From Rhynchopus sp. YZ270_cl-10 (taxonomy: Eukaryota): DNA of 64,000 nt. The notes beneath the pieces are model-generated. The model had not been told where the DNA came from. It did not search any database and was given only the letters and a program-made list of their open reading frames with translations. Of the stretch, positions 1,472 to 31,582 are shown one piece after another; the stretch's first letter is position 1, and each line of letters begins with the position of its first letter. The position numbers were made by a program, and so were the translations under genes. Location: the NCBI GenBank assembly GCA_964035575.1, contig OZ037846.1, positions 1,426,001 to 1,490,000 of the forward strand, given 5' to 3'.

Positions 1472-3406
1472 ATGGAACTCAACATCGAGGGATTTGATGG
1501 TAAGACGTACGTCGTCGATGTGGATGTGGATGACACAGCGAAGCAGCTGCGGCAGAAGGTGGCAACTGCAGCGGGGTTTGCTGAAGACGCCTTTGACATG
1601 GACTTCGGAGGGAACGGCGAAGGAGAGGACTTCAACATCACAGCGCTGAGTGCTGGCGGCACAGTCGTGTTGACGCAGACGAAGCAGCAAGAGTCCATTG
1701 CAGCTCTTCGTGCATTGGGTGAGACAGACATCACACCAGAGAGGCTTGCGAGTGTGGAAGACCCGAAGGTAGCGCAGTTGTTTCTGCAGGCAGACGTTGT
1801 ATCTGCGATTCCTCGCAAGTTCCTCGCAAGCACTAATTTACGCAGCCTTGATCTGAGTGCCCCGTTGGCTGTTACTGCGATTGATGACGACTTCTTATCC
1901 GAGTGTTTGTCATTGGAATCAATTAACTTGTCTGGGTTGCGCAACGTCACGACAATAGGCGAGTTCTTCCTGCACGGCTGCCCGTCATTGCGCACTTTTG
2001 AGCCATTCAACTTTTCAGGGTTGGGAGGTGTCACAAGCCTTGGGGACTACTTCGTTTCGCGTTGCAGGACGTTAACCTCTATCGACTTTGCAGGATTGAG
2101 CAGCGTCACAAGCGTTGGGGACGACTTCTTATCAGGTTGCCCGGCGTTAACCTCCATCAACTTTACAGGATTGGGAAGTGTCACAAGCCTTGGGGACCGC
2201 TTTTTAGCAGATTGCACGTCGTTAACCTCCATCGACTTTGCAGGACTGAGCAATGTCACAATCCTTGGGGAACGCTTCTTATTAGGTTGCACGTCGTTAA
2301 CCTCCATCGACTTTGCAGGATTGAGCAGCGTCACAAGCGTTGAGGACTGCTTCTTATTAGGTTGCATGTCGTTGACCTCCATCAACTTTACAGGATTGGG
2401 AAGTGTCACAAGCGTGGGGGACAACTTCTTAGCTTGTTGCCGAGAGTTAGCTTCCATCAACTTTGCAGGACTGAGCAATGTCACAACCGTTTGGGACGAC
2501 TTCTTATCAAATTGCACGGCGTTAACTTCCATTGACTTTGCCGGATTGAGCAGCATCACAAGCGTTGGGGACAGCTTTTTATCATATTGCACGTCGTTAA
2601 CCTCCGTCGACTTTGCTGGATTGAGCAGCCTCACAAGCCTTGGGTGCAAATTTTTATCAGCGTGCTCGGCGTTAACCTCCATCAACTTCGCTGGATTGGG
2701 AGGTGTCACAAGCCTTGGGCACGACTTCTTATCAGGTTGCACGTCGTTAACCTCCATCGACTTTGCTGGATTGGTCAATGTCACAAGCCTTGGTGGCTGC
2801 TTCTTATTACATTGCGAAGCGTTAACTTCCATCGACTTTACAGGATTGGGCAATGTTACAAGGGTTGGGCACAGCTTCGTATCACATTGCACGGCGTTAA
2901 CCTCCATCGATTTTGCAGGATTGGGAGGTGTCACAAGCCTTGGGCAACACTTCTTAGCAGATTGCGCGGCGTTAACCTCCATCGACTTTGCAGGATTGAG
3001 CAATGTCACAATCCTTGAGAAGTACTTCTTAGCAGATTGTGCGTCGTTAACCTCCATCGACTTTGCAGGGTTGGGAGGTGTCACAAGCGTTGGGGACCAC
3101 TTCTTATCAGGTTGCAGGGCGTTAACTTCCATCAACTTTGCAGGATTCAGAAGCGTCACAAGCCTTGGGAACTACTTTTTATCATATTGCAGGGCGTTAA
3201 CCACCATCGACTTTGCAGGATTGGGAGGTGTCAGAAGCCTTGGACACTACTTCTTATATGACTGCACGGCGTTAACCTCCATCGACTTTGCAGGATTGAG
3301 TGGCGTGAGACAAATTAGTCACGGCTTTATTCAAGGTTGCACTTCTTTAGAAACATACGACGAGTACATGGAGTGGTATTCGTCAAAAAGGAATCGGGAT
3401 GCATGA
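1472..3406 (+). CDS. Ubiquitin-like domain + BspA/TpLRR-type leucine-rich repeat protein, paralog 1 (644 aa, 17 LTSIDF-type 25-aa repeats)
   Basis: N-terminal Ubl pattern MELNIEGFDGKTYVVDVDVDDTAKQLRQKVA without a C-terminal GG, followed by 75-bp repeats LTSIDFAGLxxVTSxGxxFLxxCxA. ATG 1472 is conserved in all three paralogs; ATG 1409 is a possible alternative. Confidence 0.88.
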   Translation: MELNIEGFDGKTYVVDVDVDDTAKQLRQKVATAAGFAEDAFDMDFGGNGEGEDFNITALSAGGTVVLTQTKQQESIAALRALGETDITPERLASVEDPKVAQLFLQADVVSAIPRKFLASTNLRSLDLSAPLAVTAIDDDFLSECLSLESINLSGLRNVTTIGEFFLHGCPSLRTFEPFNFSGLGGVTSLGDYFVSRCRTLTSIDFAGLSSVTSVGDDFLSGCPALTSINFTGLGSVTSLGDRFLADCTSLTSIDFAGLSNVTILGERFLLGCTSLTSIDFAGLSSVTSVEDCFLLGCMSLTSINFTGLGSVTSVGDNFLACCRELASINFAGLSNVTTVWDDFLSNCTALTSIDFAGLSSITSVGDSFLSYCTSLTSVDFAGLSSLTSLGCKFLSACSALTSINFAGLGGVTSLGHDFLSGCTSLTSIDFAGLVNVTSLGGCFLLHCEALTSIDFTGLGNVTRVGHSFVSHCTALTSIDFAGLGGVTSLGQHFLADCAALTSIDFAGLSNVTILEKYFLADCASLTSIDFAGLGGVTSVGDHFLSGCRALTSINFAGFRSVTSLGNYFLSYCRALTTIDFAGLGGVRSLGHYFLYDCTALTSIDFAGLSGVRQISHGFIQGCTSLETYDEYMEWYSSKRNRDA

Positions 3407-4526
3407 GCTGCGCAGGAGTGCACAACACTGCCATGCTTTGTGGTGGTCTTTTGCACAAAGTGTTTTATGAAGAGTCGCTTCGGCAGAACCTGTCGTGAAT
3501 GGATTGTCATTGATGATCAGCGTCTTGCTCAACAGCATGAATGTTGTGCATCCAAATGAAGTTTTGTTTTTTTTTCTTTGTTTTTTTTATGATTACATGC
3601 AATGCTACAGGCATTTTGCTAACCATCGTTCCATCGTTCCCTGTTTTTGGCGTTTTTTTTTTTTTCTTTTTCATCGTTCCATCGTTCCCCCTAGGAAAAA
3701 GGTGGCATCGTTCCATCGTTCCATGGACTGTACTGTGGGGTGTGTCACAGATGCAGAGACCCTGGGCTCAAGGGCTCACCGTGGGAGACCAGAACGCGAC
3801 TGAATTGGTCAAACGCCGAAGGAAAAGGAAGCATGCAGCGTGGCGAAAGAATAAAAGTAGCGTACCGTGCGCCTGCGGCGCAGCTTGCAGCCCACCCTTC
3901 CCATGACATAGTTTGGCTGTAAAAGTGTGCAATTTTAAGCGCATTTTCTTGAAATGTTGCGTACCGTGGCTTCGCCAGAAACTTTCGTTTTATCAAAATA
4001 TGGAAGTAAAAATTACGGTAACTGTTGATAATTACCAACGACAGTGCCGGTTTATGGCAACATTTTTTTAGAAATGTTGCGTACCGTGGCTTCGCCAGGA
4101 ACTGGATGCCATGACCGCCGCTTCTTTTATAGATATACTGAGGTTATTGATAAGAGGCTGACACCCACTACGGCTTGTGGTTCACCCTCCCCACCTGCCT
4201 TTCACGATTTTGTGCATCAGAGGGGAGAAAGAGCCTCATCTTCTTGTACTGACAGGGAGTCGCGCGCGCGAAGCGCGCGCAGCGACCGCTTTTGCGGGGG
4301 GAAAGCTCGGGACCCCTTTTGCCCCATGGGTGTTCCGTATTCCGGGGGTTTTCGGGGGAAAATCGGGTCCGTATTCCACTATTTTTCTTTGGGTGGGCTT
4401 CCCCTCTGGGGGTCAAAAACAGGGTCAAAACACCCCAAAACTGGTCTCATTTGAATTTTTGGTGACCCGAGCGTTCAGCGGTGGTACCATAAAAAAAAAT
4501 TGGCGTGGCTGCATAACCGCACGGTG

Positions 4527-4635
4527 CACAGTACAGTACACAGTACACAGTACACAGTACACAGTACACAGTACACAGTACACAGTACACAGTACACAGT
4601 ACACAGTACACAGTACACAGTACACAGTACACAGT
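4527..4635. repeat. (CAGTACA)n 7-bp microsatellite
   Basis: Near-perfect tandem array, about 15 units. Confidence 0.95.
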
Positions 4636-5479: not shown

Positions 5480-5620
5480 ATTTTATCGAACAGAGTTTTT
5501 TTCTCCGCCCCGTACCTAAAAACGTAAACACCACTTTGAATCAGAAAAAGTATTTTTCCTCTCCTTTTTTTTTCTTATAAACGCGCTGGTTTTGTGTATC
5601 TCGCTAATTTTTATCACAAA
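5480..5620. repeat. Dispersed repeat family member
   Basis: TTTTATCGAACAG...CTCCGCCCCGTACC...AAACGTAAACACCACTTTGAATCAGAAAAA recurs at ~6995-7130 and ~20170-20315. Confidence 0.75.
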
Positions 5621-5724
5621 GCCTTCCCTCTGCTCTGCTTTCTTTTTCAAAAAATTGTGCCTCATTGGCTAACCTGCTTGATCAGCTCTTTCCCGCTGTG
5701 CTGCGCACACTGTTTTGTTTTCCT

Positions 5725-7600
5725 GTTACATGAATACGGATGAGCTAATACTTGGTAATCCTGCTTGAGCAGAGATCTTGATGATCAAAGAGACTGAGTG
5801 CCTTAGGGGCTTGTCCTTCCAGGGGTAGAGTTTCTTGTGGTCTCTTGCATGCACTGTGTATTTTTGCTCGGATGTGTTTCGTGTCTGTTTTGCTCTCCGT
5901 CTTACTTCCCTGATACATGAATACGGATGAGTTAAACCTGGGTAGCCCTGCTTGAGCAGGTTCTGCGACGTGGCATTTCTTATGACGTTTTCTCTGATCC
6001 CTCCCTCTGGAGCATGAATGCATGCTTCTTTTAGCTCTGTCGGCACGCAGCCAATCGGCGTGTTGCTCTTTTAACGTTACTCTTGTCTTTTTCCAAAAAA
6101 TCAGAAAAATATGCATAAATGGGGTGATTTGCCAATTTTGGGGTCTTTTTTTTCTGGAAAATTCACACAAATTCACAAACATTCGCAGCAATTCACAAAA
6201 ATTCACAACACCTGCACAAAACATTCACATAAATTCACAAAAAATCACACACCCGTGTATCACGGGTGTTTTCGCCTCGTTGTGAATTTTTGTGAATTGT
6301 CTTGAAAAAAAAGACCCCAGATCACCCCAATAAACATCAAATTTAATCACCCCTGCTGCCCTGCACCTGTGTTGTCATTATTTCCCTAGTTTCGACAGCG
6401 AAACCTTTCCCCATGTATTGCACGGGAAACAATATGACAAACAGGTGCAGGGTGGTTCCGTGCATATCATAGAACCTGGCACGATGTGTGTCTCCCAAAA
6501 ACCAAAGCGTTGTGTGTGAAGTTTTGAAGGAAGGGAAAATAAAAGTTTGGAAAAATGGATGGGTGCGATCAACAAACAACGAATATACAAAGAAGGGGGT
6601 ATTTCATTTTCTGCACATCTGTGCACAGTGCGGGGACATTATTCCTCTTACACCAACCAGAATAGAGGGGTGTCCGACAATGTCACGATCTTTCCCCACC
6701 CGCATGCTGCTCAGTTGTGCACTTCTTTCGGCAGTGGTGTTTTGTGGTGTCGACGTTGCAATGCCACACACACCCGCACACATGCCCCCTCTCACCACAA
6801 AGAGGTTTTGTTTGTTCTTTATTTTTTCTGACTTTTTATTTGAGAGATGAGACTCTGTCTTTCTTATTCTTCCCCCGCTCCCCCTAGGCACGAGACGCTT
6901 CGGCTCATCTTATAAAGTTTTCATTGTTTGTCTTCACTGTATAATATTATAGAAGAGGAAAAGGTGAACAAGATAAAACAAAAATATTGATTTTCTTTTA
7001 TCGAGCAGATTTTATTCTCCGCCCCGTACCCAAAACGTAAACACCACTTTGAATCAGAAAAAATATTTTTCTTTTTCTTCTTTTTCTTCCACACGCGCTT
7101 ATTTTTGTGCTCGCTCATTTTTGTCAAAAAGCCTCCCCCCCTCCGCTCCCTGCTTTTAGTCAGTACTCAGCCGTTGTGCTGTTACATGAACATTCATGAA
7201 TTTGTACTTGGTACTCCTGCTTGGGTAGAGTTCTTGGTTGATCCCTGGTGAGACTGAGTGCCTGATGGGCTCGTCCTTCATGGGTTAGAGTTCTTTTGGT
7301 CTCTTGTGTGTATTGGGTATTTGATGCTATGTGTTTTTTCATGCTCTCTCTGTGCTGTTTTGCACCCTTTTTGCTATCTTCTTCATGAAGTAAAATGAGT
7401 CTGTACCTGTGGTAGTTCTGTTAAGATCCTGGTTGCTCTCGTGGATTGGACAGAGCACTGATGGGCTCGCCTGTCCTGGGAAGAGAGCTTGTGGTCTCTC
7501 GTAGGACAGAGTACGAGATGCTCAGGTGTTTTTTGTGTTTCTTTCTCGGTGCTATGTGCACCCTTCGCTCCCTCTTGCTGAATGTTAGTGAGTGTTTCAT
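5725..7600. repeat. Degenerate ~190-bp repeat units (~5725-5965 and ~7180-7580) interleaved with other dispersed repeats
   Basis: Recurrent CATGAA...CTTGGTA.TCCTGCTTG...GAGACTGAGTGCCT...GGGCT.GTCCTTC...GAG.TTCTT.TGGTCTCT motifs. ~5960-6060 also matches ~7685-7790, and ~6400-6545 matches ~20330-20460. Confidence 0.6.
6680..6798 (+). pseudogene. 5' fragment of the O-fucosyltransferase-like gene
   Basis: ~6607-6798 is near-identical to ~12807-13000 (MSRSFPTRMLL...HMPPLTT) and is then cut off by a dispersed repeat. Confidence 0.85.
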
Positions 7601-8059
7601 TAGTAGTGCTCTAGTGTTCTCTTAGTATAGAGTACTGGATGCTTGCTAACGTTTTCAGGTGATTTTCTTGCGATATTTCTGCCACGCTCGACGTGGCGTT
7701 TTTTTTTTTTTTTAATGATGTTTCTCTGATCCCTCCCTCTGGAGCAGCTGGATGCATGCTTCTTTTAGCTCTGTCGGCACATAGCCAATCGTTGCCCTTC
7801 TTGCTTATCTCTTGTTCTTTGTCATAAAAAAATACTGCAAAACGCATCAAATTCAAAAACCCCTGCACCTGTGTTGTCATTATTTCCCTAGTTTCGAGTG
7901 CGAAATGTTTCCCATGTTTCCCTCCATACATACATTTCCACCCCGGGACCCCCAGCGGGTGTCGGCCTTTTATGTGTCCTCAAATGGTTGTGCATAGTGT
8001 AGCCAATTTTCCACCCACCTACCCACCCACCCACCAGTAGGTAGAACGCCCATTCCGCT

Positions 8060-9931
8060 ATGAATCGGGACAGACATGCACCCAATGGTGCCCACATGGA
8101 TGAGCGTGAGATGCGCGAGTTGCAGTACCTTCGTGAGATGAGGGAGTTGCACTACCTTCGTGAGAAGCGTGAGTTGCAGTACCTTCGTGAGAAGCTTGGC
8201 ATGGATGACAGAGAACGCGACTACGCAGAGTCCCGCCGTGACCAGAGAGGACCCGGCCGGGGTGACGACAGGTTCTCCGACAGGTACGACCGACGTGGAG
8301 GACGTGACGACCGCGGCATGCGTGAGGACCGCTTCGGACGCGGCCCACGTGACGACAGAGCGGACCCTCGTGATCGCGTTGACCGTTACGACCGCTCTGG
8401 CCCTTCTCACTTCAGAGACATCCGTGATCAACCAAGCGGCTTCTCGAGGCGCGACCCTGTGTTGCCCGATTACAGAGAACGTAACCGCCGCCCGTTGAGC
8501 CAGGACCGTTTCATTAGCCCACGCGATAGTGCGTGTAGTGGTGATCCGCAGCCCGTGAGCAACGTCCGTGACTATGACGACGGACCTGACGTACCACTCG
8601 ACGGACCACATGATGCACCACAACATACACGTCCAGAATCCGGACGCGGCGACATTCGTGACAGGCTAAAAGGGTCCCGCGACCCTCGCGACATTGCCCG
8701 TGATGCTGCCGCACGCGATGCTATGCGTCACGTCAACCCACGTGACTCCGACACTATCCCAGGTGACGGATTCCGCGAAGTGCGCCCTGCAAAGGAGAAC
8801 GGCAGTAAGGAATACAGGCCACAGCGCACAGACAAGACGATGAAGCGGCCTGACGGCACCACCATCCCGACCGTGGTGCCTCCACTCAGCAGAGACGACT
8901 ACAAGCAGGAGCAGAAGACTGAGAGCGAGGTAGGACGCTTCTTCGAAGAAAACAAGGCATGTAAGTACGATCTGCCGAAGCAGCCGGGCTCCGAGGAGGG
9001 CGATGACGCTCTTGGGGCGCCACATGGGAAAGGGGAGCACAATGGACGACATCTTCGGGTCGGCCCCCCTCCAGAGCAAAAAGGGCAAGTCGAAGGACGG
9101 CAGAAAGACGGGAAAGGGGACGGAGGTGACGGAGCAGTGGAAGAAGGAGTCGAAGGAGATTGTGAAGGAGATCAACAATCTCATCGACTTCGACTAATTC
9201 TAGACCCAACCCCTCCACTCCCCCACCTCATCACCCCCACTAGACTAGATACGTGCTTAGAATCGCACACAGAACCGGGGATAGGTAGGAGCGCCTACCC
9301 TAAAAACAACGACGAACCCGTGAACCCATTGAAGGCCATCACTGACCACATGCAGTGGTTGGACGCAACAGCCCGCAGTATCCACTCTACAAGGATAGCA
9401 GTAGCGCTGGACGGGGACTGCCTATTCACTGCCATAGCTGAGCAGAGTGAGGGGTGGACAACGAACTCACTGCGACAACGGGTGGTGGACGTACTGGACG
9501 TACTGCAAAACGACGACAGTGACCACTATACTGACATCTACTCTCCTGCCGCAAACGAAGCTCCCACCTACGCGCAACACCTAGCCAAAATGAGAATGCA
9601 AGGAACGCACGGTGGAGAGCGTGAGCTACAGACTGCGGCAAGCATACTCGACAGGGCCATCTGGGTACTGGATGCCAGAGCGAAACGGTTTAGCCACGTC
9701 GGCGGACCACCTACATCGAACCCAGTGGTGCTCACGTACAGGCCCGAGCACTTCGACCGCCTCGAAGCAACCGAGGGGCTGCTGGCGCTGATTGCAACGA
9801 CGCAAGCGGAAGGCAACCACTGTGTCACGCTCGCTGTGTCTCACACACGGAAACGCACCAAGACTGAGAGAAAGCGACGCCGCGCTGCCTGGGCCAACAG
9901 TTCCAAACCTGTCCTGCCCGAACCTTTTTGA
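8060..9931 (+). CDS. Chimeric ORF: deleted duplicate of the RD-rich KH/NTase gene fused in frame to an OTU cysteine-protease domain (possibly a pseudogene)
   Basis: 8060-9027 duplicates 14840-16422 with an in-frame 645-bp deletion. 9350-9800 encodes OTU motifs: DGDCLFTAIA (Cys codon 9419-9421), LRQRVV, THGGERELQTAASILDRAIWV, and VLTYRPEHFD (His codon 9749-9751). Confidence 0.6.
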   Translation: MNRDRHAPNGAHMDEREMRELQYLREMRELHYLREKRELQYLREKLGMDDRERDYAESRRDQRGPGRGDDRFSDRYDRRGGRDDRGMREDRFGRGPRDDRADPRDRVDRYDRSGPSHFRDIRDQPSGFSRRDPVLPDYRERNRRPLSQDRFISPRDSACSGDPQPVSNVRDYDDGPDVPLDGPHDAPQHTRPESGRGDIRDRLKGSRDPRDIARDAAARDAMRHVNPRDSDTIPGDGFREVRPAKENGSKEYRPQRTDKTMKRPDGTTIPTVVPPLSRDDYKQEQKTESEVGRFFEENKACKYDLPKQPGSEEGDDALGAPHGKGEHNGRHLRVGPPPEQKGQVEGRQKDGKGDGGDGAVEEGVEGDCEGDQQSHRLRLILDPTPPLPHLITPTRLDTCLESHTEPGIGRSAYPKNNDEPVNPLKAITDHMQWLDATARSIHSTRIAVALDGDCLFTAIAEQSEGWTTNSLRQRVVDVLDVLQNDDSDHYTDIYSPAANEAPTYAQHLAKMRMQGTHGGERELQTAASILDRAIWVLDARAKRFSHVGGPPTSNPVVLTYRPEHFDRLEATEGLLALIATTQAEGNHCVTLAVSHTRKRTKTERKRRRAAWANSSKPVLPEPF

Positions 9932-11187: not shown

Positions 11188-12372
11188 ATGGAACTCAACA
11201 TCGAGGGATTTGGTGGTAAGACGTACGTCGTCGATGTGGATGTGGATGACACAGCGAAGCAGCTGCGGCAGAAGGTGGCAACTACAGCGGGGTTTGCTGA
11301 AGACGCCTTTGGCATGGACTTCGGAGGGAACGGCGAAGGAGAGGACTTCAACATCACAGCGCTGAGTGCTGGCGACACAGTCGTATTGACGCAGACGAAG
11401 CAGCAAGAGTCCATTGCAGCTCTTCGTGCATTGGGTGAGACAGACATCACACCAAAGAGACTTGCGAGTGTGGAAGACCCGAAGGTAGCGCAGTTGTTTC
11501 TGCAGGCAGAAGTTGTATCTGCGATTCCTCGCAAGTTCCTCGCAAGCACTAATTTACGCAGCCTTGATCTGAGTGCCCCGTTGGCTGTTACTGCGATTGA
11601 TGACTACTTCTTATCCGAGTGTACATCATTGGAATCAATTAACTTGTCTGGGTTGCGCAACGTCGCGACAATAGGTGCATACTTCCTGCAAGGCTGCACG
11701 TCATTGCGCACTTTTGAGCCATTCAACTTTGCAGGATTGAGCAGTGTCACAAGGGTTGGGGACAGCTTCTTATCATATTGCACGTCGTTAACTTCCATCG
11801 ACTTTGCAGGATTGAGCGGTGTCAGAAGCCTTGGGGACGGCTTCTTATCATGTTGCACGGCGTTAACCTCCATCAACTTTGCGGGATTGGGAGGTGTCAG
11901 AAGCCTTGGGAACTACTTCTTATCACGTTGCTGGGCGTTAATTTCGATCGATTTTGCAGGATTGAGCAGCGTCACAAGCGTTGGGGACTTCTTCTTATCA
12001 CGCTGCGGGGCGTTAATTTCAATCGACTTTGCAGGATTGAGCAGTGTCACAAGCGTTGGGGACTGCTTCTTATTTCGTTGCAGGGCGTTAATTTCAATCA
12101 ACTTTGCAGGATTGGGAAGCGCAACAAGGCTTGGGGGCAACTTCTTGTCAGATTGCACGGCGTTAACCTCCATCAACTTTGCAGGATTGGGAGGTGTCAC
12201 AAGCCTTGGGGACGGCTTCTTAAGACGTTGCACGGCGTTAACCTCCATCGACTTTGCAGGATTGAGTGGCGTGAGCCAAATTGGGACCAGGTTTACTGAA
12301 GGTTGCACTTCTTTAGAAAGACACAACGAGTACATGGAGTGGTGTTCGTCAAGAAGGAATCGGGATGCATGA
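11188..12372 (+). CDS. Ubl + BspA-type LRR protein, paralog 2 (394 aa, 7 repeats)
   Basis: N-terminal ~170 aa and C-cap are near-identical to paralog 1. The CDS is exactly 750 nt (10 x 75) shorter. Confidence 0.88.
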   Translation: MELNIEGFGGKTYVVDVDVDDTAKQLRQKVATTAGFAEDAFGMDFGGNGEGEDFNITALSAGDTVVLTQTKQQESIAALRALGETDITPKRLASVEDPKVAQLFLQAEVVSAIPRKFLASTNLRSLDLSAPLAVTAIDDYFLSECTSLESINLSGLRNVATIGAYFLQGCTSLRTFEPFNFAGLSSVTRVGDSFLSYCTSLTSIDFAGLSGVRSLGDGFLSCCTALTSINFAGLGGVRSLGNYFLSRCWALISIDFAGLSSVTSVGDFFLSRCGALISIDFAGLSSVTSVGDCFLFRCRALISINFAGLGSATRLGGNFLSDCTALTSINFAGLGGVTSLGDGFLRRCTALTSIDFAGLSGVSQIGTRFTEGCTSLERHNEYMEWCSSRRNRDA

Positions 12373-14120: not shown

Positions 14121-14140
14121 GATGGGCCACACAAAAGTTA

Positions 14141-14839: not shown

Positions 14840-17293
14840 ATGAATCGGGACAGACATGCACCCAGTGGTGCCCGCATGAGTGAGCGTGAGATGCGCGAGT
14901 TGCAGTTCCTTCGTGAGATGCTCAAGGGTGGCAGAGAACGCGACTACGCCGAGCCCCGCCGTGACCAGAGAGGACCTGGCCGGGGTGACGACAGGTTCTC
15001 CGACAGGTACGACCGACGTGGAGGACGTGACGACCGCGGCATGCGTGAGGACCGATTCGGACGCGGCCCACGTGACGACAGAGCGGACCCTCGTGATCGC
15101 GTTGACCGTTACGACCGCTCTGGCCCTTCTCACTTCAGAGACATCCGTGATCAACCAAGCGGCTTCTCAAGGCGCGACCCTGTGTTGCCCGATTACAGAG
15201 AACGTAACCGCCGCCCGTTGAGCCAGGACCGTTTCATTAGCCCACGCGATAGTGCGCGCCGTGGTGATCCACGTGGTGATCCACGTGGCGAGCCGCAGCC
15301 CGTGAGCAACTTCCGTGACTATGACGACGGACCTGACGTACCACTCGACGGACCACCTGATGCACCACAACATACACGTCCAGAATCCGGACGCGGCGAC
15401 ATTCGTGACAGGCTAAAAGGGTCCCGCGACCCTCGCGACATTGCCCGTGATGCTGCCGCACGCGATGCTATGCGTCACGTCAACCCACGTGACTCCGACA
15501 CTATCCCAGGTGACGGATTCCGCGAAGTGCGCCCTGCAAAGGAGAACGGCAGTAAGGAATACAGGCCACAGCGCACAGACAAGACGATGAAGCGGCCTGA
15601 CGGCACCACCATCCCGACCGTGGTGCCTCCACTCAGCAGAGACGACTACAAGCAGGAGCAGAAGACTGAGAGCGAGGTAGGACGCTTCTTCGAAGAAAAC
15701 AGCAACAACTTCGTGCAGGTCTTCTACATCCTGCCGGCCAACGTGGAGAAGCTGGTGGGGAGAACCAACGCACAGATCCACCTACTGGAGCGGAAGTACA
15801 GTGTGGCGTTGAGTACGCATGCGACGGGGCGTGTCGTGGTGCGGGCACGTCGTTTGACGAACGTTGAGTCTTGCAGTGCCGAAGTGCGCCGCATCACGAC
15901 GCTGTGGGAAGATCACGACAGCACCGACAAATGGCTCGAGGTGACGGATCAGGTGACGCTCGACCTGGAGCGCAACAGCTGCCGCTATATGTACGACATC
16001 TCTCGCATCTCGGAGTGCAAGATCGACATCACCCGCCGCAAGACCGGCAACACCCTGCGCATGAGCGGCACCCCCGAAGCACGCGCCGCAGGCATTTCCG
16101 AGCTCCGAGAGTTCGTCGCGCAGTCTGCAACCAACGTCAATCAGACATTCATGTTCCCTCTGGACGCGCTGGACCGCTTCATCGGACAACGTGGTCGCAA
16201 CCTGGCCTCCTTCGAGAGAGAGACTGAGTGCGCTGTCAACACACGCAACGCAAAATCCGAGAGTGTTGGCGACCTGGGCCCTCTCGTTTTAACCGCACCG
16301 GTCGCGGTCATTGCGAAGGCTAAAGAGAAGATCTACGCACAGCTCAAGGCATGGAAGTACGATCTGCCGAAGCAGCCGGGCTCCGAGGAGGGTGATCTCG
16401 ACGTTCTTGGGGCGCCACATGGCCTGACTTTGACACGCTTCGAAAAGGATACGGACATGATCAGTGCAGAAGAGGCGCAACGTGCACTGCGCTACAGCTA
16501 CCTCCGTCACATCGTGCACGCTGAGAACTGGGAAGACCCCTCTGCCGAGACACTCAAAAAGTGCGATGAACTTGTCGCGCACATCGAAGAGCTGATGATC
16601 GCGGCAAGCTACAAACCGTTCAGAATCCGCATGGTGGGCGAGTGGATGCTTGGCGTCGCAGATAAGGAGACACCAGTGAACATGGTTGTTGTGCAGTCGA
16701 AGAAGCTCCGAGAGATGGCGCCCTCAATGCAGGCAGAAATCCTTGCGAAGCTGCAGCAGGTTCTGGCAAAGGACGGCTTCACCTCCGTTGACATCGTCGG
16801 TCTGTACAACAGCATCTTCCTCCGGAAGCGTGGCGGCGACGTGACGGCAGCCTCCCTCAACGCACAGTTCAACTTCGACATCTCCTGCAACGCTGCCCAC
16901 GAACAGCAGCTCTGCGCGCTTCTGCAGGCGTACGTCCAGCAGTCCCCCGCCGTCCGTGGAATGATGTGGGTGCTGAGCAGCTTCTTCAAGTCCCTCCCGC
17001 TTGCTGTGTGCTCTACTAAGGTCAAGACCGCACTCAGGCTTGAGACCATCGGAGTCATGGTCATCCGCTTCCTTCTCGACAGTTCTGAGCTCAAATGGAT
17101 CGACCCAACCTCTGGCCCCATCACCGCTGCACGCGAAAAGCGCCCCAGCGAATGTGAATGGGAACCCATGACCGACATTTCACAGTACAAAAGCCAGGTG
17201 CAGGCCTTCATGAAGTTCTATACGTTTGGATTCGACTTCGAAACACATCAGGTCAGCATTACCCAGGCACAGTCGAGCGAACGTGACGAGAAG
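14840..17293 (+). CDS. RD-rich low-complexity + three KH domains + degenerate TUTase/non-canonical poly(A) polymerase-like domain (large first exon; 3' end uncertain)
   Basis: KH-like units LPANVEKLVGRTNAQIHLLERKYSV, DISRISECKIDI...LRMSGTPEA and FIGQRGRNLASFERETECAV. NTase-like segments MVGEWMLGVADKETPVNMVVV, FDISCN and FMKFYTFGFDFETHQVSI. Probable donor AAG|GTATGT at 17293/17294; unspliced stop at 17335. Confidence 0.75.
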
Positions 17294-22021: not shown

Positions 22022-25000
22022 ATGGACGACGCGCAGACGAATCAAACAACAGAGATGAAACACCCAGAGAACGAAGGCGACCTGCCCAGCTCGGTGCGAA
22101 TCTCTGTGCAGGCCATTGTGCAGGCCGTCAGCCCCACCGCTCGCGACAGGAAAGCGCAAACACTACAGGGTTTCACTGAATCGCTGGACGCTGCCCCCTG
22201 TGTGGTTGTAGCAAAGTCGACCTGCGGATTCTGCACGCGCGCGATCTCACAGCTCCAGAACACCGGTGTGCGTGTGGACGTCTTCTACATTGACAAGATT
22301 GCGGAAGGCGACAAGGTGCGTGAGGCTGCAAAGGAGGAGGCCTCAGGACACAGCACTGTCCCGCTCATCTTCATCAAAAGCGAGTTTGTGGGTGGTTGCA
22401 ACGATGTTATGGCGCTAGAGGGGTCTGGCGAACTGTACACGAAGCTTGGTGTGTCGGCACCGTCGAAGGTGGCTGCGTGGGTCACGGAGAAGGAGAGCGA
22501 GGTGCGCAAGAAGCCGATGAGGGCTGGGCTGTTCTACTTCCCGCACACAGTGAACGCCTACGTGATCCGCCTGGTCGCTCTGCAGATGGTGGTGCTGTGC
22601 GTGGTCTGCATCATCTTCAGGGACGAGGAGTGGGCTGCGTACGTTGCGCTCGGGATGGCATTGGACTTCTTCGTAAGACTCATCGGTGGTGCTGCCTTCT
22701 CCCCTGCTGGTGCGTTGGCGATGCTCCTGAGCGTCCCTTTGAAGGAGGACCTCAGAAACGGTCCCCCAAAGCAGTTTGCAACCATGATCGGGTTTGTCTT
22801 CAGCCTTGTGGGGGGAGTGCTTCTGCAGGTCGAGTCGTCCGGGATCGCTGGTGCTTTTGTTCTCGGGTGTCTGTCTGGGCCTGCTGCGCTGGAGGCTGTG
22901 TTTGACTTCTGCCTTGGGTGCTGGTTCTTTGGTTACATGGTGAAGCTGGGCATTGTTTCCGACAGTGTGTACCACGTGCACATTGACCAGAAGCCAGCTG
23001 TGCAGCGTACGTTGGACCTGATAGACGACTTTGAAACAGAGCTGAAGAAGGTCGTGCCACTGCAGTACAGAGAGCCGGGACAGCCGAAGACCGCTGCAGA
23101 TGTGAACCTGAAGAGATACAAGAGCGACGACCACGTGCGCAGAGGCTTCAATCCTGTGAAGAACGTGCACATCTCAGACATGATGATGCCCCTTGGTCTT
23201 GCGGGTCTTGCGCTTGTGTGGAAGAAAAACCACCGCTTTGCGTGCAAAGACCCTGAGGACAGCTCTGACGCATCGTACGTGGGGCCGAATGAGGTCTGGC
23301 ATGTTTTTCTGTTCTTGTCTCTTGCGCTGTTCGCGTTCATCGGGATGTTGCTCATTGCGAAGGTGGTGCGTCATCGGAAGAAGGTGCACGCAGAGCTGGT
23401 GCACCCGATTAAGTCGAACGCAGTTGCCGCCCTCCCGATGTGCATATGCGTGTACTCGATCCTGGTGCCGCATGAATCGAGGGACTTTGCTCGGGCGCTC
23501 TTCTGGATAGGTGCGGTGCCGCTGACGGTGCTGCTGATCTGGAAGTGTTCGTGGCTGATTGGGAACCGTGGTGACGCTGAGTTGATGACTCCGAGCCTGC
23601 TGCTTCCCATTGGCGGCTGTCTTGTGGCGTCCCTGAACGCGTCGCTCTGGGCTGGGTATGCTGAGCTGGCGTGGTTCCTGTTCTCGCTTCCGTGTCTGCT
23701 GTCTCTGCTGCTGTTTGGTGGCACGTTCCTGTCCTCGATTTCGTACCACTGGTCTGACGAGCGCATGCGTGCCTCGGTAGGGATGTGGAGCACCGTGCTG
23801 CACCTTATCTGCATCAGTTACGCGGCACTGCAGAAGCTCCCCATGTACGATCAGCTGACGAGCACCCGCAGTTTCTACTATTGGTATGGAGGCCCCCAGG
23901 GACTGCCAGACTCTGTGCAAAGTACAGTGGAGCTGAACTCCTTCAGCAAGGCGCTGTACTTCGCTGGCGTGACGCTTGTGCTTATTTTCCTGTGGCTTGC
24001 TGTGCCGATGGGCTTCATCTTCAGAGTGAAGTTCGACTTCTCATACTGGAGCGTTGCGTTCACAGCAGACATCTTTGCTGCGGCTGCCATGATCTATGCT
24101 GACGGTGCGTACAAGCCCCGCCTGCAGTCGGAGTCACTGAACCACTATGCCAGAGCAGTTGCCACAGGTGCGTTGATGTTTGCTACGTGGGTGAACGTGG
24201 TGCTCTTGCTGAACACGGTGTTCTGGCTCGTGAAGAAGAGATGGCTGCGCCCACAGTACAAATTTGGCCCCTTGTCGTTCAACAAACTGACCCACGAGGC
24301 GCTGCGTGAGTCTGGACACCACCTGCTGCGCTCTGCAGAAGGCATCGTTGCTGCAGGGTCAGGGGACGCTTTCACCGTGAAGGAGCTGTCGAAGGGGCTT
24401 ATCGCACACCTGAAGCTGCACCTGATAGTGCTGGACTGGCACAGCCACATGGAGGACACGATTCTGTTCAGGATGGTTGACTCGTTCCACCCGATGGTGT
24501 CGCGTGACGGATACGCCCAGCACGCCGCACTGCACAAGATGGAGGCCACTGCAAAGGAGCTCCTGACGAAGCTCGAAGACCCCTCTTCAGACCACGCACG
24601 CAACATCCTGGAGCTCCGTGACCTTCTGCAACGCATGGTGCCGTTCTCGGACAAGCACATGGACTGGGAGGAGGACAACCTGAACGGGCTTCTGCGGAAG
24701 GGCTTCAACATGGCGATCCAGCGGAAGCTTCTTGTCAACATCTGGGACTCGTACATGTCGAAGACGATGGAGGAGATCCGTGGGACGGTGACGCAGACGG
24801 ACACAGCGTGGTCTCAATACGACTTCACGAAGCTGAGTGCGGAGGCGAGCTACTACTCTGTGGAGAAGGACTTCAGGGAGCTGCTGAAGTTCCCACCGCA
24901 GTTCCCACTGGAGGAGATCCCGATGGAGAAGCAGCAGATCCTGCGTGTGGCGCTGCCCTTCATTGTGCACTGGCTGCCACTTCCGATCCAGAGAACACGC

Positions 25001-25156
25001 TTCATGCGCACACTTGCGTGGGGTGTCCCGGAGCATGCTCAGCAGGTGGGCGACATGGTGTACCGTGGGGTGCCCGACACGACGTGGGCTGTCCTGGCTG
25101 TCGACGTACCTGAGATGATCCCACGCGGCCTGCCTGGCTGGGTCAGGCGTGTGTAG
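22022..25156 (+). CDS. Glutaredoxin - DUF4395 - SLAC1/TehA (TDT) anion channel - hemerythrin fusion protein (1044 aa)
   Basis: Grx: KSTCGFC, TVPLIFI, VGGCND. DUF4395-like: VNAYVIRLVA, DFFVR, PPKQFATMIG, ALEAVFDFCLGC. SLAC1/TehA: PLGLAGLALVW, ELVHPIKSN, TPSLLLP, FDFSYWSVAFT. Hemerythrin: THEALR, HSHMEDTILF, QHAALH, HMDWEE. Confidence 0.85.
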   Translation: MDDAQTNQTTEMKHPENEGDLPSSVRISVQAIVQAVSPTARDRKAQTLQGFTESLDAAPCVVVAKSTCGFCTRAISQLQNTGVRVDVFYIDKIAEGDKVREAAKEEASGHSTVPLIFIKSEFVGGCNDVMALEGSGELYTKLGVSAPSKVAAWVTEKESEVRKKPMRAGLFYFPHTVNAYVIRLVALQMVVLCVVCIIFRDEEWAAYVALGMALDFFVRLIGGAAFSPAGALAMLLSVPLKEDLRNGPPKQFATMIGFVFSLVGGVLLQVESSGIAGAFVLGCLSGPAALEAVFDFCLGCWFFGYMVKLGIVSDSVYHVHIDQKPAVQRTLDLIDDFETELKKVVPLQYREPGQPKTAADVNLKRYKSDDHVRRGFNPVKNVHISDMMMPLGLAGLALVWKKNHRFACKDPEDSSDASYVGPNEVWHVFLFLSLALFAFIGMLLIAKVVRHRKKVHAELVHPIKSNAVAALPMCICVYSILVPHESRDFARALFWIGAVPLTVLLIWKCSWLIGNRGDAELMTPSLLLPIGGCLVASLNASLWAGYAELAWFLFSLPCLLSLLLFGGTFLSSISYHWSDERMRASVGMWSTVLHLICISYAALQKLPMYDQLTSTRSFYYWYGGPQGLPDSVQSTVELNSFSKALYFAGVTLVLIFLWLAVPMGFIFRVKFDFSYWSVAFTADIFAAAAMIYADGAYKPRLQSESLNHYARAVATGALMFATWVNVVLLLNTVFWLVKKRWLRPQYKFGPLSFNKLTHEALRESGHHLLRSAEGIVAAGSGDAFTVKELSKGLIAHLKLHLIVLDWHSHMEDTILFRMVDSFHPMVSRDGYAQHAALHKMEATAKELLTKLEDPSSDHARNILELRDLLQRMVPFSDKHMDWEEDNLNGLLRKGFNMAIQRKLLVNIWDSYMSKTMEEIRGTVTQTDTAWSQYDFTKLSAEASYYSVEKDFRELLKFPPQFPLEEIPMEKQQILRVALPFIVHWLPLPIQRTRFMRTLAWGVPEHAQQVGDMVYRGVPDTTWAVLAVDVPEMIPRGLPGWVRRV

Positions 25157-26051: not shown

Positions 26052-26174
26052 TGGTACTATACGGGGGGCGGGGTTTCACAACTTTTTCACACCCACATAG
26101 TTGTGAAATAAAGGATTGAAATACCTATTTACAGAAGTGGCAAAGTTGTGAAACCCCGCCCCCAGTACAGCACC
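26052..26174. mobile_element. Short MITE-like inverted-repeat element
   Basis: GGGGGCGGGGTTTCACAACTTT ... AAAGTTGTGAAACCCCGCCCCC inverted termini. Confidence 0.65.
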
Positions 26175-26831: not shown

Positions 26832-26942
26832 GAGGGAAGGGGAGGAATAGTACAATGCGATCTAGCCTGGATACACTAACCAAATTAGTAACAACACACA
26901 ATCAAAAAAAACAGAGGAAAAAAAAGAAAAAGGGATTACATA

Positions 26943-28654
26943 ATGGCGGGTTTGACCGACACACAGCTGCGTGAGGTGTTCGACCTTTTTGATGCCAACG
27001 GTGACGGCACCATTGACAACGAGGAGATGGGTCTGGTCCTCGAGGCCTTGGGCTTCGGTAAGGTGGACGACGACGACCTCAGGGCAATGGTATGGCAACA
27101 ATTGACACAAAAAAGGGCAATAGTGATTAGTCAGTTGAAGGAAGTCAAGAGATTGTGGTAGACGCACATTGTTTTGACGTACTGCTTTGTGAGCGGGAAG
27201 TATCGCTCCGCAACACCACCTAACAGGTGAGTGTGTGTGTGGAAGCGTCAACGCATCAAACAACTACAAGAAAGGGGGGTGAGGGAACGATAACGCAACA
27301 CATTGCGTTGCCACACCTTTCTCACACCACCATACCACAGATCTCCGAAGTTGATGTTGACTTCTCCGGGAAGATGGAGTTCGACGAGTTCAGGCACATG
27401 GTGAAGAAGCGCCATGCTGAGAAGGACTCGCGTGAGGAGATTGCTCTTGCCTTTGGCGTCTTCGCAGGCAAGACCGAGGAGGGCGGGCTGAAGGAGTACA
27501 TCTCTGCCAAGGACCTCGCGACCGTGGCACTCAGCATCAACGAACACGTCGACATGAACAAGTTCCAGGACCTCCTCAACAGTGCACCAGGGATGCCCAT
27601 CGGCACCGACGACGAAGGCAACAGCAAAGGACTCACCATCGTGCAGTGGAGGGAGATGATGGCCGAGGTATGCAAAAGAAGTAAGTATTGCATTTTCGCT
27701 ACCGTCAAAGCGGAGCGATTTTCGCCTGACATTGCCTTGTCCATATCGTGATCATTTCTGACACATGACGGGGGGACAGCTTATTTTGTAATCCTGGGGA
27801 GGGAGCTGGCTAGCTGCCACCGCGCTGTGTTCTTGTCCCCTTTAAGCACTGCTGAATGAAACGTGCTGTGTAGTTGGGGGGGAAAAAAGTTTAATTTTGT
27901 TTTTGTGCGGGCTGGGCGATCTTGCGGGCTGTGTAGTTGCCTTTTCCTTTTCTGTGGCTTCGCTTCACTCGCCTTAGTGTGCGCCGCGGTCGTGAGGTGT
28001 TTGTTCTGCGCCCGTCTGAGTGCATCTGAGGAGTAGCTTCAATGTCTACCCAAGCATTTCTTCTCGTCCTGACCGAACTTCTCCATCCACCCCGTTCTTC
28101 ACGGCATCTGCGCAGGTCTGCTGTTGTGGTGGTGGGGGTTCGACCGCAGTAGCTCTCCTCCATCAGCCGTCTTGACGACAAGCTTACCCGCAAAGGAGAG
28201 TGTCACTTGCTTTCGTTCATTTGACGCTAGGACAAAAAAAGTGCAAAAGTGTCCGTGCTTTTGACACCCCACGGGAAGAAGGAACAGGATCACGTCCCCA
28301 TCATCACTGGTCCCCGCTGCATTTTGACACGAATCCCTGAGGCTGTGGTGGAGGAGGGGCTGCCAAGGGAATACAAAGGGGGAAATCTCGAAAAAGTCAC
28401 CCCGCGGTGACTTGTGGTTTTTTTCTCTCTCTCAAAACCTGTTTTATTTGAAAGATCGCAACGATTTGAGTCGAAATACAAATTTCTTTTGAATTAATAA
28501 CAAACAGTTCGGCTTTTCCCCATTTTACGTGGGGAAAATTTCCCAAACATTAAATCCGGGCCACAATCCCTGAGTTACAAATACCCTTGCCCCCCACTCA
28601 AACACTCACACACAGGTGTCGACACGTAAGTACGCCGACGCTTTCAAGATCTAA
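26943..28654 (+). CDS. Centrin/calmodulin-like EF-hand protein, 3 exons (26943-27089, 27341-27667, 28616-28654; 170 aa)
   Basis: EF loops DANGDGTIDNEE and DVDFSGKMEFDE, plus EEIALAFGVF and YISAKDL. Both introns are GT(ATG)...CAG and phase 0; the spliced frame ends VSTRKYADAFKI-stop. Confidence 0.85.
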
Positions 28655-29884
28655 AAAAAAAAAGAAGTAAAATAAGTCAAAGAAAAACAGACTCCTCGTT
28701 CTTCTCCCCTTCCCCTTCCTCCTCCCTTTCCCGCTTTGTGCTCTCTTCATGGGTCATAGAGGGAAATGCCGCAATGAACCAATAAAAATACTTTTCTCTT
28801 CCCCTTTCAACAAGGGGGTTTCATGTGTTTATTTGTAGGTTTGAGGGGGGAGGGTTGTAAGGTAGGAATGAGAAGGAGAACAAACGTTGCGTTGAGGGGT
28901 GTTTAGAGTTGCCACACCCCCCGCTTTTTTTTTTTTTTGCACTCAGTGTATTGAAGGGGGGGTACAAAAAAAAAAAAAAACAAAAAAACCGAAAAAACAA
29001 AATAAGGCTTGATTGGCTTAATGTAAATCCCCCTTTTCCCCCAACCCCTCCCCAACCCAGGATATTTTTTTTTTTTTGGCAAAAAGATGCGAAGGTAGAG
29101 AGAGACGCGCATCCTTTTGTTTTCAAAATTTGTTTTCTTTTTTTTTTTCCCCCCTCCTCCAAAATAAAATGGAGAGGGGGATATATCTGTGTGTTTTTTT
29201 TTGTTTTGCTCAGCGCGGGGGATAGTGTTAGTGTAGGAGAAGGAAAAAACGGGGGTGTGGCTGATTCACACCACAGTGATGTTTTCTTTTTGTTCACAAA
29301 AAAGGGGGGGGGGGCGGGACAAAAAAAAGGTGAAGGCTATAACCCTCCCACTTCGTATGTGGGATTATACGAAACTTAACGTGCGATGTCCTTCTCCTTC
29401 ACCTCTCATTAGGTCTATGCAAACCGTGGCAGTACTTTTTTTTGTTTTCCAAACACCTGTCGGGGGATGTGGATGGCATTGTGGGGGGTGGGACATTTTT
29501 TTTCTTTTTTTTTTTTTGGTTTTTTTTTTAGGGAAAACGTTCAAAAACAAAAAGAAAAACAACGAAAAAAAGTGGAGAGTTTTTTTGCTATGGCAAAAAA
29601 AGGGGGGGAGGGAAACAGTTTTTTGTAAGATTTTCCAACAAAAAAAAGGGGGTGGTTGTTTTTGTTTTGTTTTTTTGTTTTTCAGCTTTGCTTTGCTTTC
29701 TTTTTTTTTTTTTTTTTGTAGAAGATTCCGTCCCGTTTCCCCAGTGCGACAGCTTTCTCTACGGCGAGGTGGTGCTCTGTTATGGCCCCTACGGCACTAC
29801 CATTTTTTTTTTTTTTTTGAAACGAGAAATCAAAGATTATGGGTCAGGTGCGCAGATAGCTTGGTGCTGCACATCACTTTTCCT

Positions 29885-30052
29885 CAACCTTCCTTCACCC
29901 CTGCAGTCTTTGGATAATTTTTCGACCACTTAAATTGGAAAATATGAGCCCGCCTATTTGCAGCCAAAATTTTTCTCAAAATCCGGATTCGTACAATTGA
30001 CCCACCTACATCCATTTCAATACAATGCCTTATTAGGGGTGAAGGAAGGTTG
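29885..30052. mobile_element. TIR element CAACCTTCCTTCACCCC...GGGGTGAAGGAAGGTTG
   Basis: 17-bp inverted termini. Same family as the inverted copy at 61972-62326 and as the ends upstream of LRR paralogs 1 and 2. Confidence 0.75.
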
Positions 30053-30163
30053 TGGGAAAAGGATTGTAAATCCAAACACCACCCAGTTAGTCAAGAGATG
30101 GATGGACAATCAATGGCTGTGTTTTTGCACCACTCCCACAAACAGAAAACACACAAAACACGA

Positions 30164-31582
30164 ATGGAACTCAACATCGAGGGATTTGGTGGTAAGACGT
30201 ACGTCGTCGATGTGGATGTGGATGACACAGCGAAGCAGCTGCGGCAGAAGGTGGCAACTACAGCGGGGTTTGCTGAAGACGCCTTTGGCATGGACTTCGG
30301 AGGGAACGACGAAGGAGAGGACTTCAACATCACAGCGCTGAGTGCTGGCGGCACAGTCGTATTGACGCAGACGAAGCAGCAAGAGTCCATTGCAGCTCTT
30401 CGTGCATTGGGTGAGACAGACATCACACCAGAGAGGCTTGCGAGTGTGGAAGACCCGAAGGTAGCGCAGTTGTTTCTGCAGGCAGAAGTTGTATCTGCGA
30501 TTCCTCGCAAGTTCCTCGCAAGCACTAATTTACGCAGCCTTGATCTGAGTGCCCCGTTGGCTGTTACTGCGATTGATGACTACTTCTTATTCCAGTGTAC
30601 ATCATTGGAATCAATTAACTTGTCTGGGTTGCGCAACGTCACGACAATAGGTGCATACTTCCTGCAAGGCTGCCCGTCATTGCGCACTTTTGAGCCATTC
30701 AACGTTGCAGGATTGAGCAGTGTCACAAGGGTTGGGGACAGCTTCTTATCATATTGCACGGCGTTAACTTCCATCGACTTTGCAGGATTGAGCAGTGTCA
30801 GAAGCCTTGGGGACGGCTTCTTATCATGTTGCATGGCATTAACCTCCATCAACTTTGCAGGGTTGGGAGTCACAAGCCTTGGGGACTACTTCTTATCAGG
30901 TTGCATGGCATTAACTTCCATCAACTTTGCAGGATTGGGAGGTGTCACAAGCCTTGGGGACGGCTTCTTATCAGGTTGCACGGCATTAACCTCCATCGAC
31001 TTTGCACGATTGGGAGGTGTCACAAGTCTTGGGGACGACTTCTTAGCAAGTTGCACGGCGTTAACCTCCATCAAATTTACAGGATTGAGCAGTGTTACAA
31101 GCCTTGGGAACTGCTTCTTAGCACATTGCGAAGCGTTAACTTCCATCGACTTTGCAGGATTGGACAGTGTCACAAGCCTTGGGCACAGCTTCTTATTTGA
31201 ATGCACGGCGTTAACCTCCATCGACTTTGCAGGATTGGGAGGTGTCACAAGTCTTGGGGACGACTTCTTAGCAAGTTGCACGGCGTTAACCTCCATCAAC
31301 TTTACAGGATTGAGCAGTGTTACAAGCCTTGGGAACTGCTTCTTAGCACATTGCGAAGCGTTAACTTCCATCGACTTTGCAGGATTGGACAGTGTCACAA
31401 GCCTTAGACACTACTTCTTATATGACTGCACGGCGTTAACCTCCATCGACTTTGCAGGGTTGAGTGGCGTGAGACAAATTAGAGACGGCTTTATTCAAGG
31501 TTGCACTTCTTTAGAAAGACACGACGAGTACATGGAGTGGTATTCGTCAAGAAGGAATCAGGATGGATGGGCTGCACAGTAG
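30164..31582 (+). CDS. Ubl + BspA-type LRR protein, paralog 3 (472 aa, 10 repeats)
   Basis: Same constant ends as paralogs 1 and 2. One repeat is 24 aa, repeats 4-6 are duplicated as 7-9, and the stop is displaced by 4 codons. Confidence 0.88.
   Translation: MELNIEGFGGKTYVVDVDVDDTAKQLRQKVATTAGFAEDAFGMDFGGNDEGEDFNITALSAGGTVVLTQTKQQESIAALRALGETDITPERLASVEDPKVAQLFLQAEVVSAIPRKFLASTNLRSLDLSAPLAVTAIDDYFLFQCTSLESINLSGLRNVTTIGAYFLQGCPSLRTFEPFNVAGLSSVTRVGDSFLSYCTALTSIDFAGLSSVRSLGDGFLSCCMALTSINFAGLGVTSLGDYFLSGCMALTSINFAGLGGVTSLGDGFLSGCTALTSIDFARLGGVTSLGDDFLASCTALTSIKFTGLSSVTSLGNCFLAHCEALTSIDFAGLDSVTSLGHSFLFECTALTSIDFAGLGGVTSLGDDFLASCTALTSINFTGLSSVTSLGNCFLAHCEALTSIDFAGLDSVTSLRHYFLYDCTALTSIDFAGLSGVRQIRDGFIQGCTSLERHDEYMEWYSSRRNQDGWAAQ

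What the first reader, a model, noticed from the sequence alone, without database searches (positions are those of the whole stretch)
1472..31582. Family of Ubl-LRR proteins with constant ends and a reshuffled, hypervariable LRR cassette (candidate immune-like recognition system)
Seen: three intact paralogs (1472, 11188, 30164) with near-identical Ubl plus first LRRs and C-cap, but 17, 7 and 10 internal 75-bp modules. Lengths differ by whole modules, paralog 3 has a 3-module block duplication, and module types recur at different positions between paralogs (e.g. GDSFLSYC, CFLxHCEA, HYFLYDCTA). No signal peptide or TM, so probably cytosolic. Known: modular LRR diversification underlies lamprey VLRs and plant NLRs, and non-cleavable N-terminal Ubl domains dock to the proteasome or p97. 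Inference: a diversifying intracellular receptor repertoire coupling variable target recognition to degradation in a protist.
Basis: partly seen in the sequence, partly recalled or inferred. Interest (0 to 1): 0.85.

Follow-up and report, generated by a model that had tools for sequence, protein, structure and literature searches.

The report
Hypervariable ubiquitin-headed LRR binder family
Three intact genes in a single-celled eukaryote, likely a diplonemid, belong to a large family that joins a ubiquitin-like head to leucine-rich repeats of variable number whose few variable positions change unusually fast, likely a germline repertoire of intracellular binders used against microbes or viruses.

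Summary
In detail: three intact, intron-free paralogs carry a ubiquitin-fold head, a helical cap and 17, 7 and 10 internal 75-bp BspA/TpLRR-type repeats. Five of 25 repeat positions are hypervariable. At position-matched codons they show 12 amino-acid changes and no silent one (omega about 13, small counts). Core positions are purified. Gene C looks chimeric (B-like start, A-like end). At least 185 Ubl-plus-cap proteins were retrieved, varying at the same positions. Subfamilies end in bipartite-NLS-like, CaaX-like or hydrophobic tails, and five carry B-box heads. Relatives occur in named diplonemid transcriptomes. Modules are mostly colinear (gain, loss, crossover), not freely reshuffled. Variation avoids the canonical LRR strand used by VLRs and NLRs. 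The Ubl lacks ubiquitin's Ile44/Val70 patch, so direct proteasome docking is doubtful. Nothing suggests somatic assembly. Ligand, Ubl partner and expression of these three genes are untested, and the constant ends show no purifying signal among these young copies. Best reading: a germline, compartment-addressed repertoire of intracellular binders in a biotic conflict. Diversifying LRR repertoires are known in protists; I did not find this architecture in print.

The parts
1472..3406 (+). Gene A: Ubl (1472-1681), helical cap (1682-1801), first repeats, 17 internal 75-bp BspA-type modules (2012-3286), C-terminal cap; 644 aa
11188..12372 (+). Gene B: same plan, 7 modules (11728-12252); 394 aa; AlphaFold model pLDDT 92.6
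30164..31582 (+). Gene C: same plan, 10 modules (30704-31450); likely chimera with B-like 5' part and A-like last module and cap; 472 aa
31001..31450 (+). Three-module block (31001-31225) and its tandem copy (31226-31450) in gene C
11188..11397 (+). Ubiquitin-fold domain of gene B; no Gly-Gly, no Ile44/Val70 patch, acidic
6607..6943 (+). Decayed copy of the start and upstream DNA of the O-fucosyltransferase gene that follows gene B; part of the tandem duplication that links A and B
7968..9027 (+). Truncated, internally deleted copy of the KH-domain gene at 14840; same duplicated block
119..1193 (.). 1075-bp element with terminal inverted repeats and a 6-bp target-site duplication just upstream of gene A; role in the family not shown
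47408..48637 (+). Related Ubl fused to a beta-propeller with a Cys-rich C-terminus; same head on another repeat scaffold

Best explanation
These genes are members of a large family of Ubl plus BspA-type LRR proteins that likely act inside the cell as variable-specificity binders in a conflict with intracellular microbes or viruses. Shown: repeat number changes by whole modules, gene C is a mosaic of A-like and B-like parts, and amino-acid changes pile up at repeat positions 12, 13, 16, 17 and 19 while core positions are purified. Inferred: unequal crossover and gene conversion in the germline make the length and mosaic variation; the variable positions stack into one binding ridge beside the second short strand; selection from foreign ligands drives them; C-terminal tails send subfamilies to the nucleus, to membranes or (these three, untagged) to the cytosol. 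The Ubl is likely a constant handle for a host partner that is not reached through the ubiquitin Ile44 patch; the outcome (degradation, sequestration or signalling) is unknown.
For: Position-matched codons of A, B and C: 12 non-silent and 0 silent events at 15 hypervariable codons, against 4 silent events in 152 silent sites; omega about 13, p about 1e-6 (the positions were defined on the internal modules). Across 34 modules, a tree-free count gives a ratio of 1.7 at these sites (p 0.016) and 0.20 at core sites. No stop in about 139 events, p about 0.002. The same positions are most variable in all five repeat classes (611 repeats). Mosaic signal in C, Fisher p 0.012. Gene A stayed intact while its co-duplicated neighbours decayed. 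185 of 377 proteins held have a full Ubl plus cap. Of the 175 with two or more repeats, 49 have a strict bipartite NLS pattern in the last 70 residues (1 elsewhere) and 29 have Cys at -4 (2-9 at neighbouring offsets); tags follow clades. B-box fusions in P0045, P0076, P0080, P0180 and P0214 (two of the five matches are weak). Transcript-derived relatives are named Flectonema neradi and Diplonema japonicum. Diplonemids host cytoplasmic bacteria with secreted effectors (10.1101/719211, passages).
Against: No ligand, partner or expression shown for these genes. Outside the hypervariable sites, omega among the three paralogs is 0.9-1.5, so the constant ends show no purifying signal at this young age. 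The omega estimate rests on 4 silent events, and patchy gene conversion could inflate it. These positions are free x positions in the BspA consensus (recalled), and the analogous pair is the most variable in FNIP repeats too (PMC9525666, passages), so family-level entropy alone may reflect tolerance. The decay of linkage with distance was not significant (p 0.20). Entamoeba BspA proteins without signal peptides are reported at the cell surface (PMC5349171, PMC2843621, passages), so lack of a signal peptide does not prove a cytosolic location.
Confidence: 0.52

Rival explanations
1. Proteasome or p97 shuttle receptors: the LRR catches a target and the Ubl docks directly on proteasome ubiquitin receptors or p97, as in Rad23 or Dsk2.
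For: The Ubl fold is tied with ubiquitin and the Dsk2 UBL at Z about 10. It is N-terminal with no Gly-Gly. F-box-FNIP fusions are thought to select proteins for degradation (PMC9525666, passages).
Against: The Ile44 position is Ser 61%, Gly 14%, Arg 5%, Asp 5%; Val70 is Thr 83%; median net charge is -8. That shuttle UBLs need this patch is recalled knowledge. A shared fold does not pick out a Ubl class.
Confidence: 0.14
2. Largely neutral turnover: tandem 75-bp repeats expand and contract mechanically, and variation collects where the fold tolerates it.
For: Omega near 1 outside the variable sites. Many database members are truncated, some by LINE-like or OTU-bearing inserts. The locus lies in a duplicated, repeat-rich block. 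No expression data.
Against: Tolerance predicts omega up to 1, not 12 non-silent to 0 silent events. Core sites are purified, there are no stops, and targeting tails are conserved within clades.
Confidence: 0.14
3. Outward-facing or offensive binders (adhesins or effectors for prey, hosts or symbiont management) exported without a signal peptide, like Entamoeba or Trichomonas BspA proteins.
For: Same Pfam LRR_5 class. CaaX-bearing Entamoeba BspA is reported on the surface (PMC2843621, PMC5349171, passages).
Against: NLS-like tails on 49 of 175 members, prenylation-type tails and a Ubl head point inward. An effector's NLS could, however, target a prey nucleus.
Confidence: 0.11
4. Adaptors for the cell's own regulatory proteins, diversified by subfunctionalisation and not by conflict.
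For: Subfamilies with distinct addresses, and the same Ubl on a beta-propeller.
Against: Very young, near-identical paralogs already differ at the variable sites, which stable endogenous partners would not favour.
Confidence: 0.06
5. Programmed somatic assembly or targeted mutagenesis of modules (VLR-like or DGR-like).
For: Constant ends flank interchangeable modules; variable codons keep their third base.
Against: All three genes are complete. No orphan module lies in the 64 kb (44 profile matches, 1 outside the ORFs at a negative score). Silent adenines are no more variable than other bases. Listed variant contigs recur at similar depth across runs, though contigs drop rare variants.
Confidence: 0.03

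Closest known systems
BspA/TpLRR (Pfam LRR_5) families of Trichomonas vaginalis and Entamoeba histolytica
   Same: Same repeat class, large expansion, and CaaX tails on some members (Entamoeba; PMC2843621 and PMC5349171, passages)
   Different: Those are described as surface proteins; the word ubiquitin does not occur in PMC2843621. Here there is a Ubl head, NLS-like clades and a 25-residue repeat.
Tetrahymena 90-bp-exon LRR genes (PMC6564038, passages)
   Same: Lineage-specific LRR repertoire with variable repeat number, unequal crossover proposed, and an immune role suggested
   Different: One exon per repeat with phase-2 introns and mostly purifying selection reported; here intron-free, BspA class, Ubl head, local positive selection
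Brown algal ROCO LRR genes (PMC11378527, abstract and section 11)
   Same: Module-level variation and positive selection at a few repeat positions; candidate immune receptors
   Different: Exon-encoded repeats, ROC-COR GTPase, selected sites on the concave strand; here no NTPase and the main strand is conserved
FNIP/FGxxFN repeat proteins of giant viruses and slime moulds (PMC9525666, passages)
   Same: The most variable residues sit between Gly and Phe of a GxxF motif; fusions to ubiquitin-system heads (F-box) occur
   Different: 22-residue repeat, F-box or kinase heads and not Ubl
Lamprey VLRs and plant NLRs (VLR abstract starts in search listing; the rest recalled)
   Same: Constant ends around variable LRR modules
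   Different: No somatic assembly, secretion signal or NB-ARC domain, and a different variable face
Ubl-DUF285 and FNIP/LRR_5 clusters in the ESM Atlas (scores 0.77-0.80, leads only)
   Same: Ubl head on a BspA-like repeat solenoid
   Different: Different repeat family, low scores, taxa mostly unrecorded

Membership tests
BspA/TpLRR class LRR | Pfam LRR_5 above cut-off | tested here: met
   191, 91 and 132 bits against a cut-off of 27.7
BspA/TpLRR class LRR | Closest solved folds are TpLRR-class proteins | tested here: met
   4fs7, 4gt6 and 6mlx rank first, though TM-scores are only 0.30-0.37
Integral ubiquitin-like domain | Beta-grasp fold | tested here: met
   Z 10.6, rmsd 1.7 over 67 residues to ubiquitin
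Integral ubiquitin-like domain | No C-terminal Gly-Gly for cleavage or conjugation | tested here: met
   0 of 158 members whose last strand matched the pattern, out of 185
Rad23/Dsk2-type proteasome shuttle | Leu8-Ile44-Val70 hydrophobic patch (feature recalled) | tested here: not met
   Position 8 is hydrophobic, but 44 is Ser/Gly/Arg/Asp and 70 is Thr
Rad23/Dsk2-type proteasome shuttle | Binding to the proteasome or p97 | not testable with these tools
   needs a pull-down
Lamprey VLR-like system | Incomplete germline gene with flanking LRR cassettes | tested here: not met
   Complete ORFs and no orphan modules in the 64 kb; the rest of the genome was not available
Lamprey VLR-like system | Somatic clonal diversification | not testable with these tools
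   Only contigs were available, and they drop rare variants
Lamprey VLR-like system | Variation on the LxxLxL strand; secreted or anchored | tested here: not met
   Strand positions 21-25 and 1 have ratio 0.26; no signal peptide
NLR or ROCO receptor | NB-ARC, NACHT or ROC-COR NTPase | tested here: not met
   None in the Pfam scan; the three proteins are fully accounted for by Ubl, cap and repeats
Exon-shuffled LRR genes (Tetrahymena, brown algae) | One exon per repeat | tested here: not met
   Uninterrupted ORFs
F-box-LRR substrate receptor | F-box domain | tested here: inconclusive
   No Pfam F-box; the helical cap at residues 71-106 was barely tested by the fold search
Diversity-generating retroelement target | Adenine-specific mutagenesis | tested here: not met
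   Third-position A departs 8%, against C 14%, G 8% and T 10%

The most novel reading that the evidence does not exclude
Diplonemids have independently built a germline cell-autonomous immune repertoire from a bacterial-type BspA scaffold. Hundreds of Ubl-headed binders, with a positively selected ridge off the canonical LRR strand, are addressed by swappable tails to nucleus, membranes and cytosol, some with TRIM-like B-box heads, and all signal or dispose of targets through one shared Ubl-binding partner.
Probability: 0.3. Interest if true: 0.85.

Novelty: new variant of a known kind. Interest (0 to 1): 0.6.

Why it matters
How free-living protists recognise intracellular bacteria and viruses is largely open. 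This family gives a concrete, testable candidate in an abundant marine group: defined variable sites, a constant Ubl handle that can be used as bait, and predicted addresses that can be checked by tagging. It would also show an LRR class that diversifies a surface other than the strand used by VLRs, NLRs and ROCOs.

Tried and rejected
No whole genome is held, so no genome-wide count was possible. No RNA holder was listed; this is no evidence on expression. Related loci: none in viral contigs with the family alignment or two non-diplonemid-looking repeat proteins, and none in metagenome contigs. Rfam found nothing in the window. A homolog search with the neighbouring KH gene gave no named relative, so the lineage rests on LRR-family relatives and on gene arrangement. 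Linkage decay within modules was not significant (341 of 755 site pairs incompatible, p 0.20). Joints in the laid contigs had short sides and skip lengths that were not multiples of 75, so they were not used; summed depths were not used as copy number. The careful tree did not finish; a quick tree of 133 of 175 rows (42 NLS rows left out at random, 135 columns) was used only for coarse clades. The DGR and VLR readings were rejected as given under rivals. No complex prediction was run because no candidate partner was available. Three look-ups of earlier findings returned nothing. Reads were laid only over gene A; genes B and C have no read support here. Literature searches and the D. papillatum genome paper (passages and a supplement term search) showed no description of this family. 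The library lacks most subscription papers, bioRxiv supplements are closed, and only part of the supplement hits were viewed.
Full report
Observation. The window holds three uninterrupted frames of one plan at 1472-3406 (A), 11188-12372 (B) and 30164-31582 (C). Each has a 180-residue shared start, then 17, 7 or 10 modules of 75 bp, then a capping repeat. C5-C7 is tandemly duplicated as C8-C10 (0-6 nt differences). The shared start differs by 8-19 of 540 nt, whereas modules differ between genes by 13-15 of 75 nt on average. Exact public contigs bridge four module junctions of gene A at depths like those of the flanks. Those rows come from one study, which may be the source, and B and C were not covered.

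Anatomy. Pfam assigns the repeats to LRR_5 (BspA) far above cut-off. The AlphaFold model of B (pLDDT 92.6) shows a beta-grasp at 1-68, three helices at 71-106 and a solenoid, whose nearest solved folds are TpLRR-class proteins. The head aligns to ubiquitin at Z 10.6 and rmsd 1.7. It has no Gly-Gly after the last strand in 158 of 158 members scored. In the 185 aligned members the Ile44 position is Ser, Gly, Arg or Asp, Val70 is Thr in 83%, and the median charge is -8. There is no signal peptide or TM.

Where the variation lies. Positions 12, 13, 16, 17 and 19 of the 25-residue repeat carry 6-10 residues each, while the main strand and core are nearly fixed. A tree-free count gives a non-silent to silent ratio of 1.7 at these sites (p 0.016), 0.36 elsewhere and 0.20 at core sites. 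An independent test on position-matched codons (first two repeats and cap) finds 12 non-silent and 0 silent events at 15 codons, against 4 silent events overall: omega about 13, p about 1e-6. Against my reading, omega at the remaining sites is 0.9-1.5, counts are small, and conversion tracts could inflate the figure. No stop arose in about 139 events (p about 0.002). [quoted passage not shown] Among 21 close relatives, entropy is 2.18 bits there against 0.56 in the Ubl.

How the arrays change. Close inter-gene module pairs are mostly colinear (A8-C1, A10-C4, A11-C6, A17-C10; B1-C1, B2-C2, B7-C4). One pair (A15-C3, 4 nt) is clearly out of order and one (A2-B2, 7 nt) weakly so. C resembles B at the 5' end and A at the last module and cap (14:5 against 3:9 sites, Fisher p 0.012, no outgroup), as expected from a crossover inside the array. 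A and B sit in a tandem duplication: A's copies of the two downstream genes survive only as fragments about 2% diverged, while A stayed intact. No orphan modules lie in the window, and adenines are not preferentially changed. I infer ordinary germline unequal crossover and conversion, not programmed assembly.

The family. Three capped searches (best 120 of 130, 143 of 143, best 120 of 509) gave 185 proteins with a full Ubl plus cap among 377 held, including the three window genes. The first 80 hits lie on megabase-scale ENA contigs of 32 distinct lengths, 23 of them on one length. They are unnamed and may come from more than one assembly; the window's own three were not found by exact look-up. 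Among 175 with two or more repeats, 49 end in a strict bipartite NLS pattern (1 match elsewhere), 29 have Cys at -4 (2-9 at neighbouring offsets), and one clade has hydrophobic tails. These counts share ancestry, but CaaX-like ends occur in about six separate places on the tree. Five members carry B-box heads. The window genes form a young untagged clade, and A and C have the most repeats in the set (20 and 13 by the script's count, against a mode of 5). Many shorter hits are truncated, by introns or insertions. Transcript-derived relatives with the same repeat are named Flectonema neradi and Diplonema japonicum; one has a Pfam ubiquitin hit above cut-off and two end in CaaX-like motifs. The long ORFs with Pfam hits all lie on the plus strand, as described for Diplonema gene arrays (PMC10161547, passages). 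A diplonemid host is therefore likely but not proven. The same repeat type occurs in non-diplonemid-looking proteins, and a ChoanoV1 giant-virus protein is among the best viral fold matches (TM 0.54).

Mechanism. Best reading (0.52): variable-specificity intracellular binders under selection from foreign ligands, addressed to compartments by their tails, with the Ubl as a constant handle for an unknown partner. Rivals are a direct proteasome shuttle (0.14), neutral turnover (0.14), exported adhesins or effectors (0.11), endogenous adaptors (0.06) and somatic assembly (0.03). Ligand, partner, location and expression of these three genes are all untested.

Comparison. It is a member of the BspA/TpLRR class and of the integral Ubl proteins. 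It is not a VLR, NLR, ROCO, exon-shuffled LRR gene or DGR target by the features tested. It works like the diversifying LRR repertoires proposed for Tetrahymena (PMC6564038, passages) and brown algae (PMC11378527, abstract and section 11), and it shares the variable GxxF pair with FNIP proteins (PMC9525666, passages). BspA expansions with CaaX tails are known in Entamoeba (PMC2843621 and PMC5349171, passages). My searches found no description of a Ubl-BspA family in diplonemids. One D. papillatum LRR gene is listed as a transfer candidate shared with five other diplonemids (supplement row); its relation to this family was not checked.

Verdict. Real, non-neutral and part of a large family; a new variant of a known kind. 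Interest 0.6.

Noticed in passing
window 119-1193: 1075-bp element with terminal inverted repeats, internal inverted repeats and a 6-bp target-site duplication; likely a non-autonomous DNA transposon.
   Followed up: partly
window 8060-9931: Chimeric ORF: truncated copy of the KH gene's 5' part fused to an OTU protease domain, possibly from a retroelement; a database family member also has an OTU-bearing insert.
   Followed up: partly
window 47408-48637: Beta-propeller protein with a related N-terminal Ubl (hhalign probability 78%) and a Cys-rich C-terminus; may belong to a parallel Ubl-headed family.
   Followed up: partly
window 22022-25156: Unusual fusion of glutaredoxin, DUF4395, a SLAC1 anion channel and a weak hemerythrin-like domain, suggesting a redox- or oxygen-gated channel.
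   Followed up: no
window 32770-34497 and 44606-46663: Two related membrane proteins, one with an adenylate/guanylate cyclase domain.
   Followed up: no
window 56504-60430: Membrane protein with a long Pro-Thr-rich 15-bp repeat stalk.
   Followed up: no
proteins P0272, P0299, P0300, P0346 and BFVD entry A0A5B8IP53: The same 25-residue repeat type in virus-like or bacteria-like proteins, hinting at exchange of this scaffold between diplonemids, giant viruses and bacteria.
   Followed up: partly
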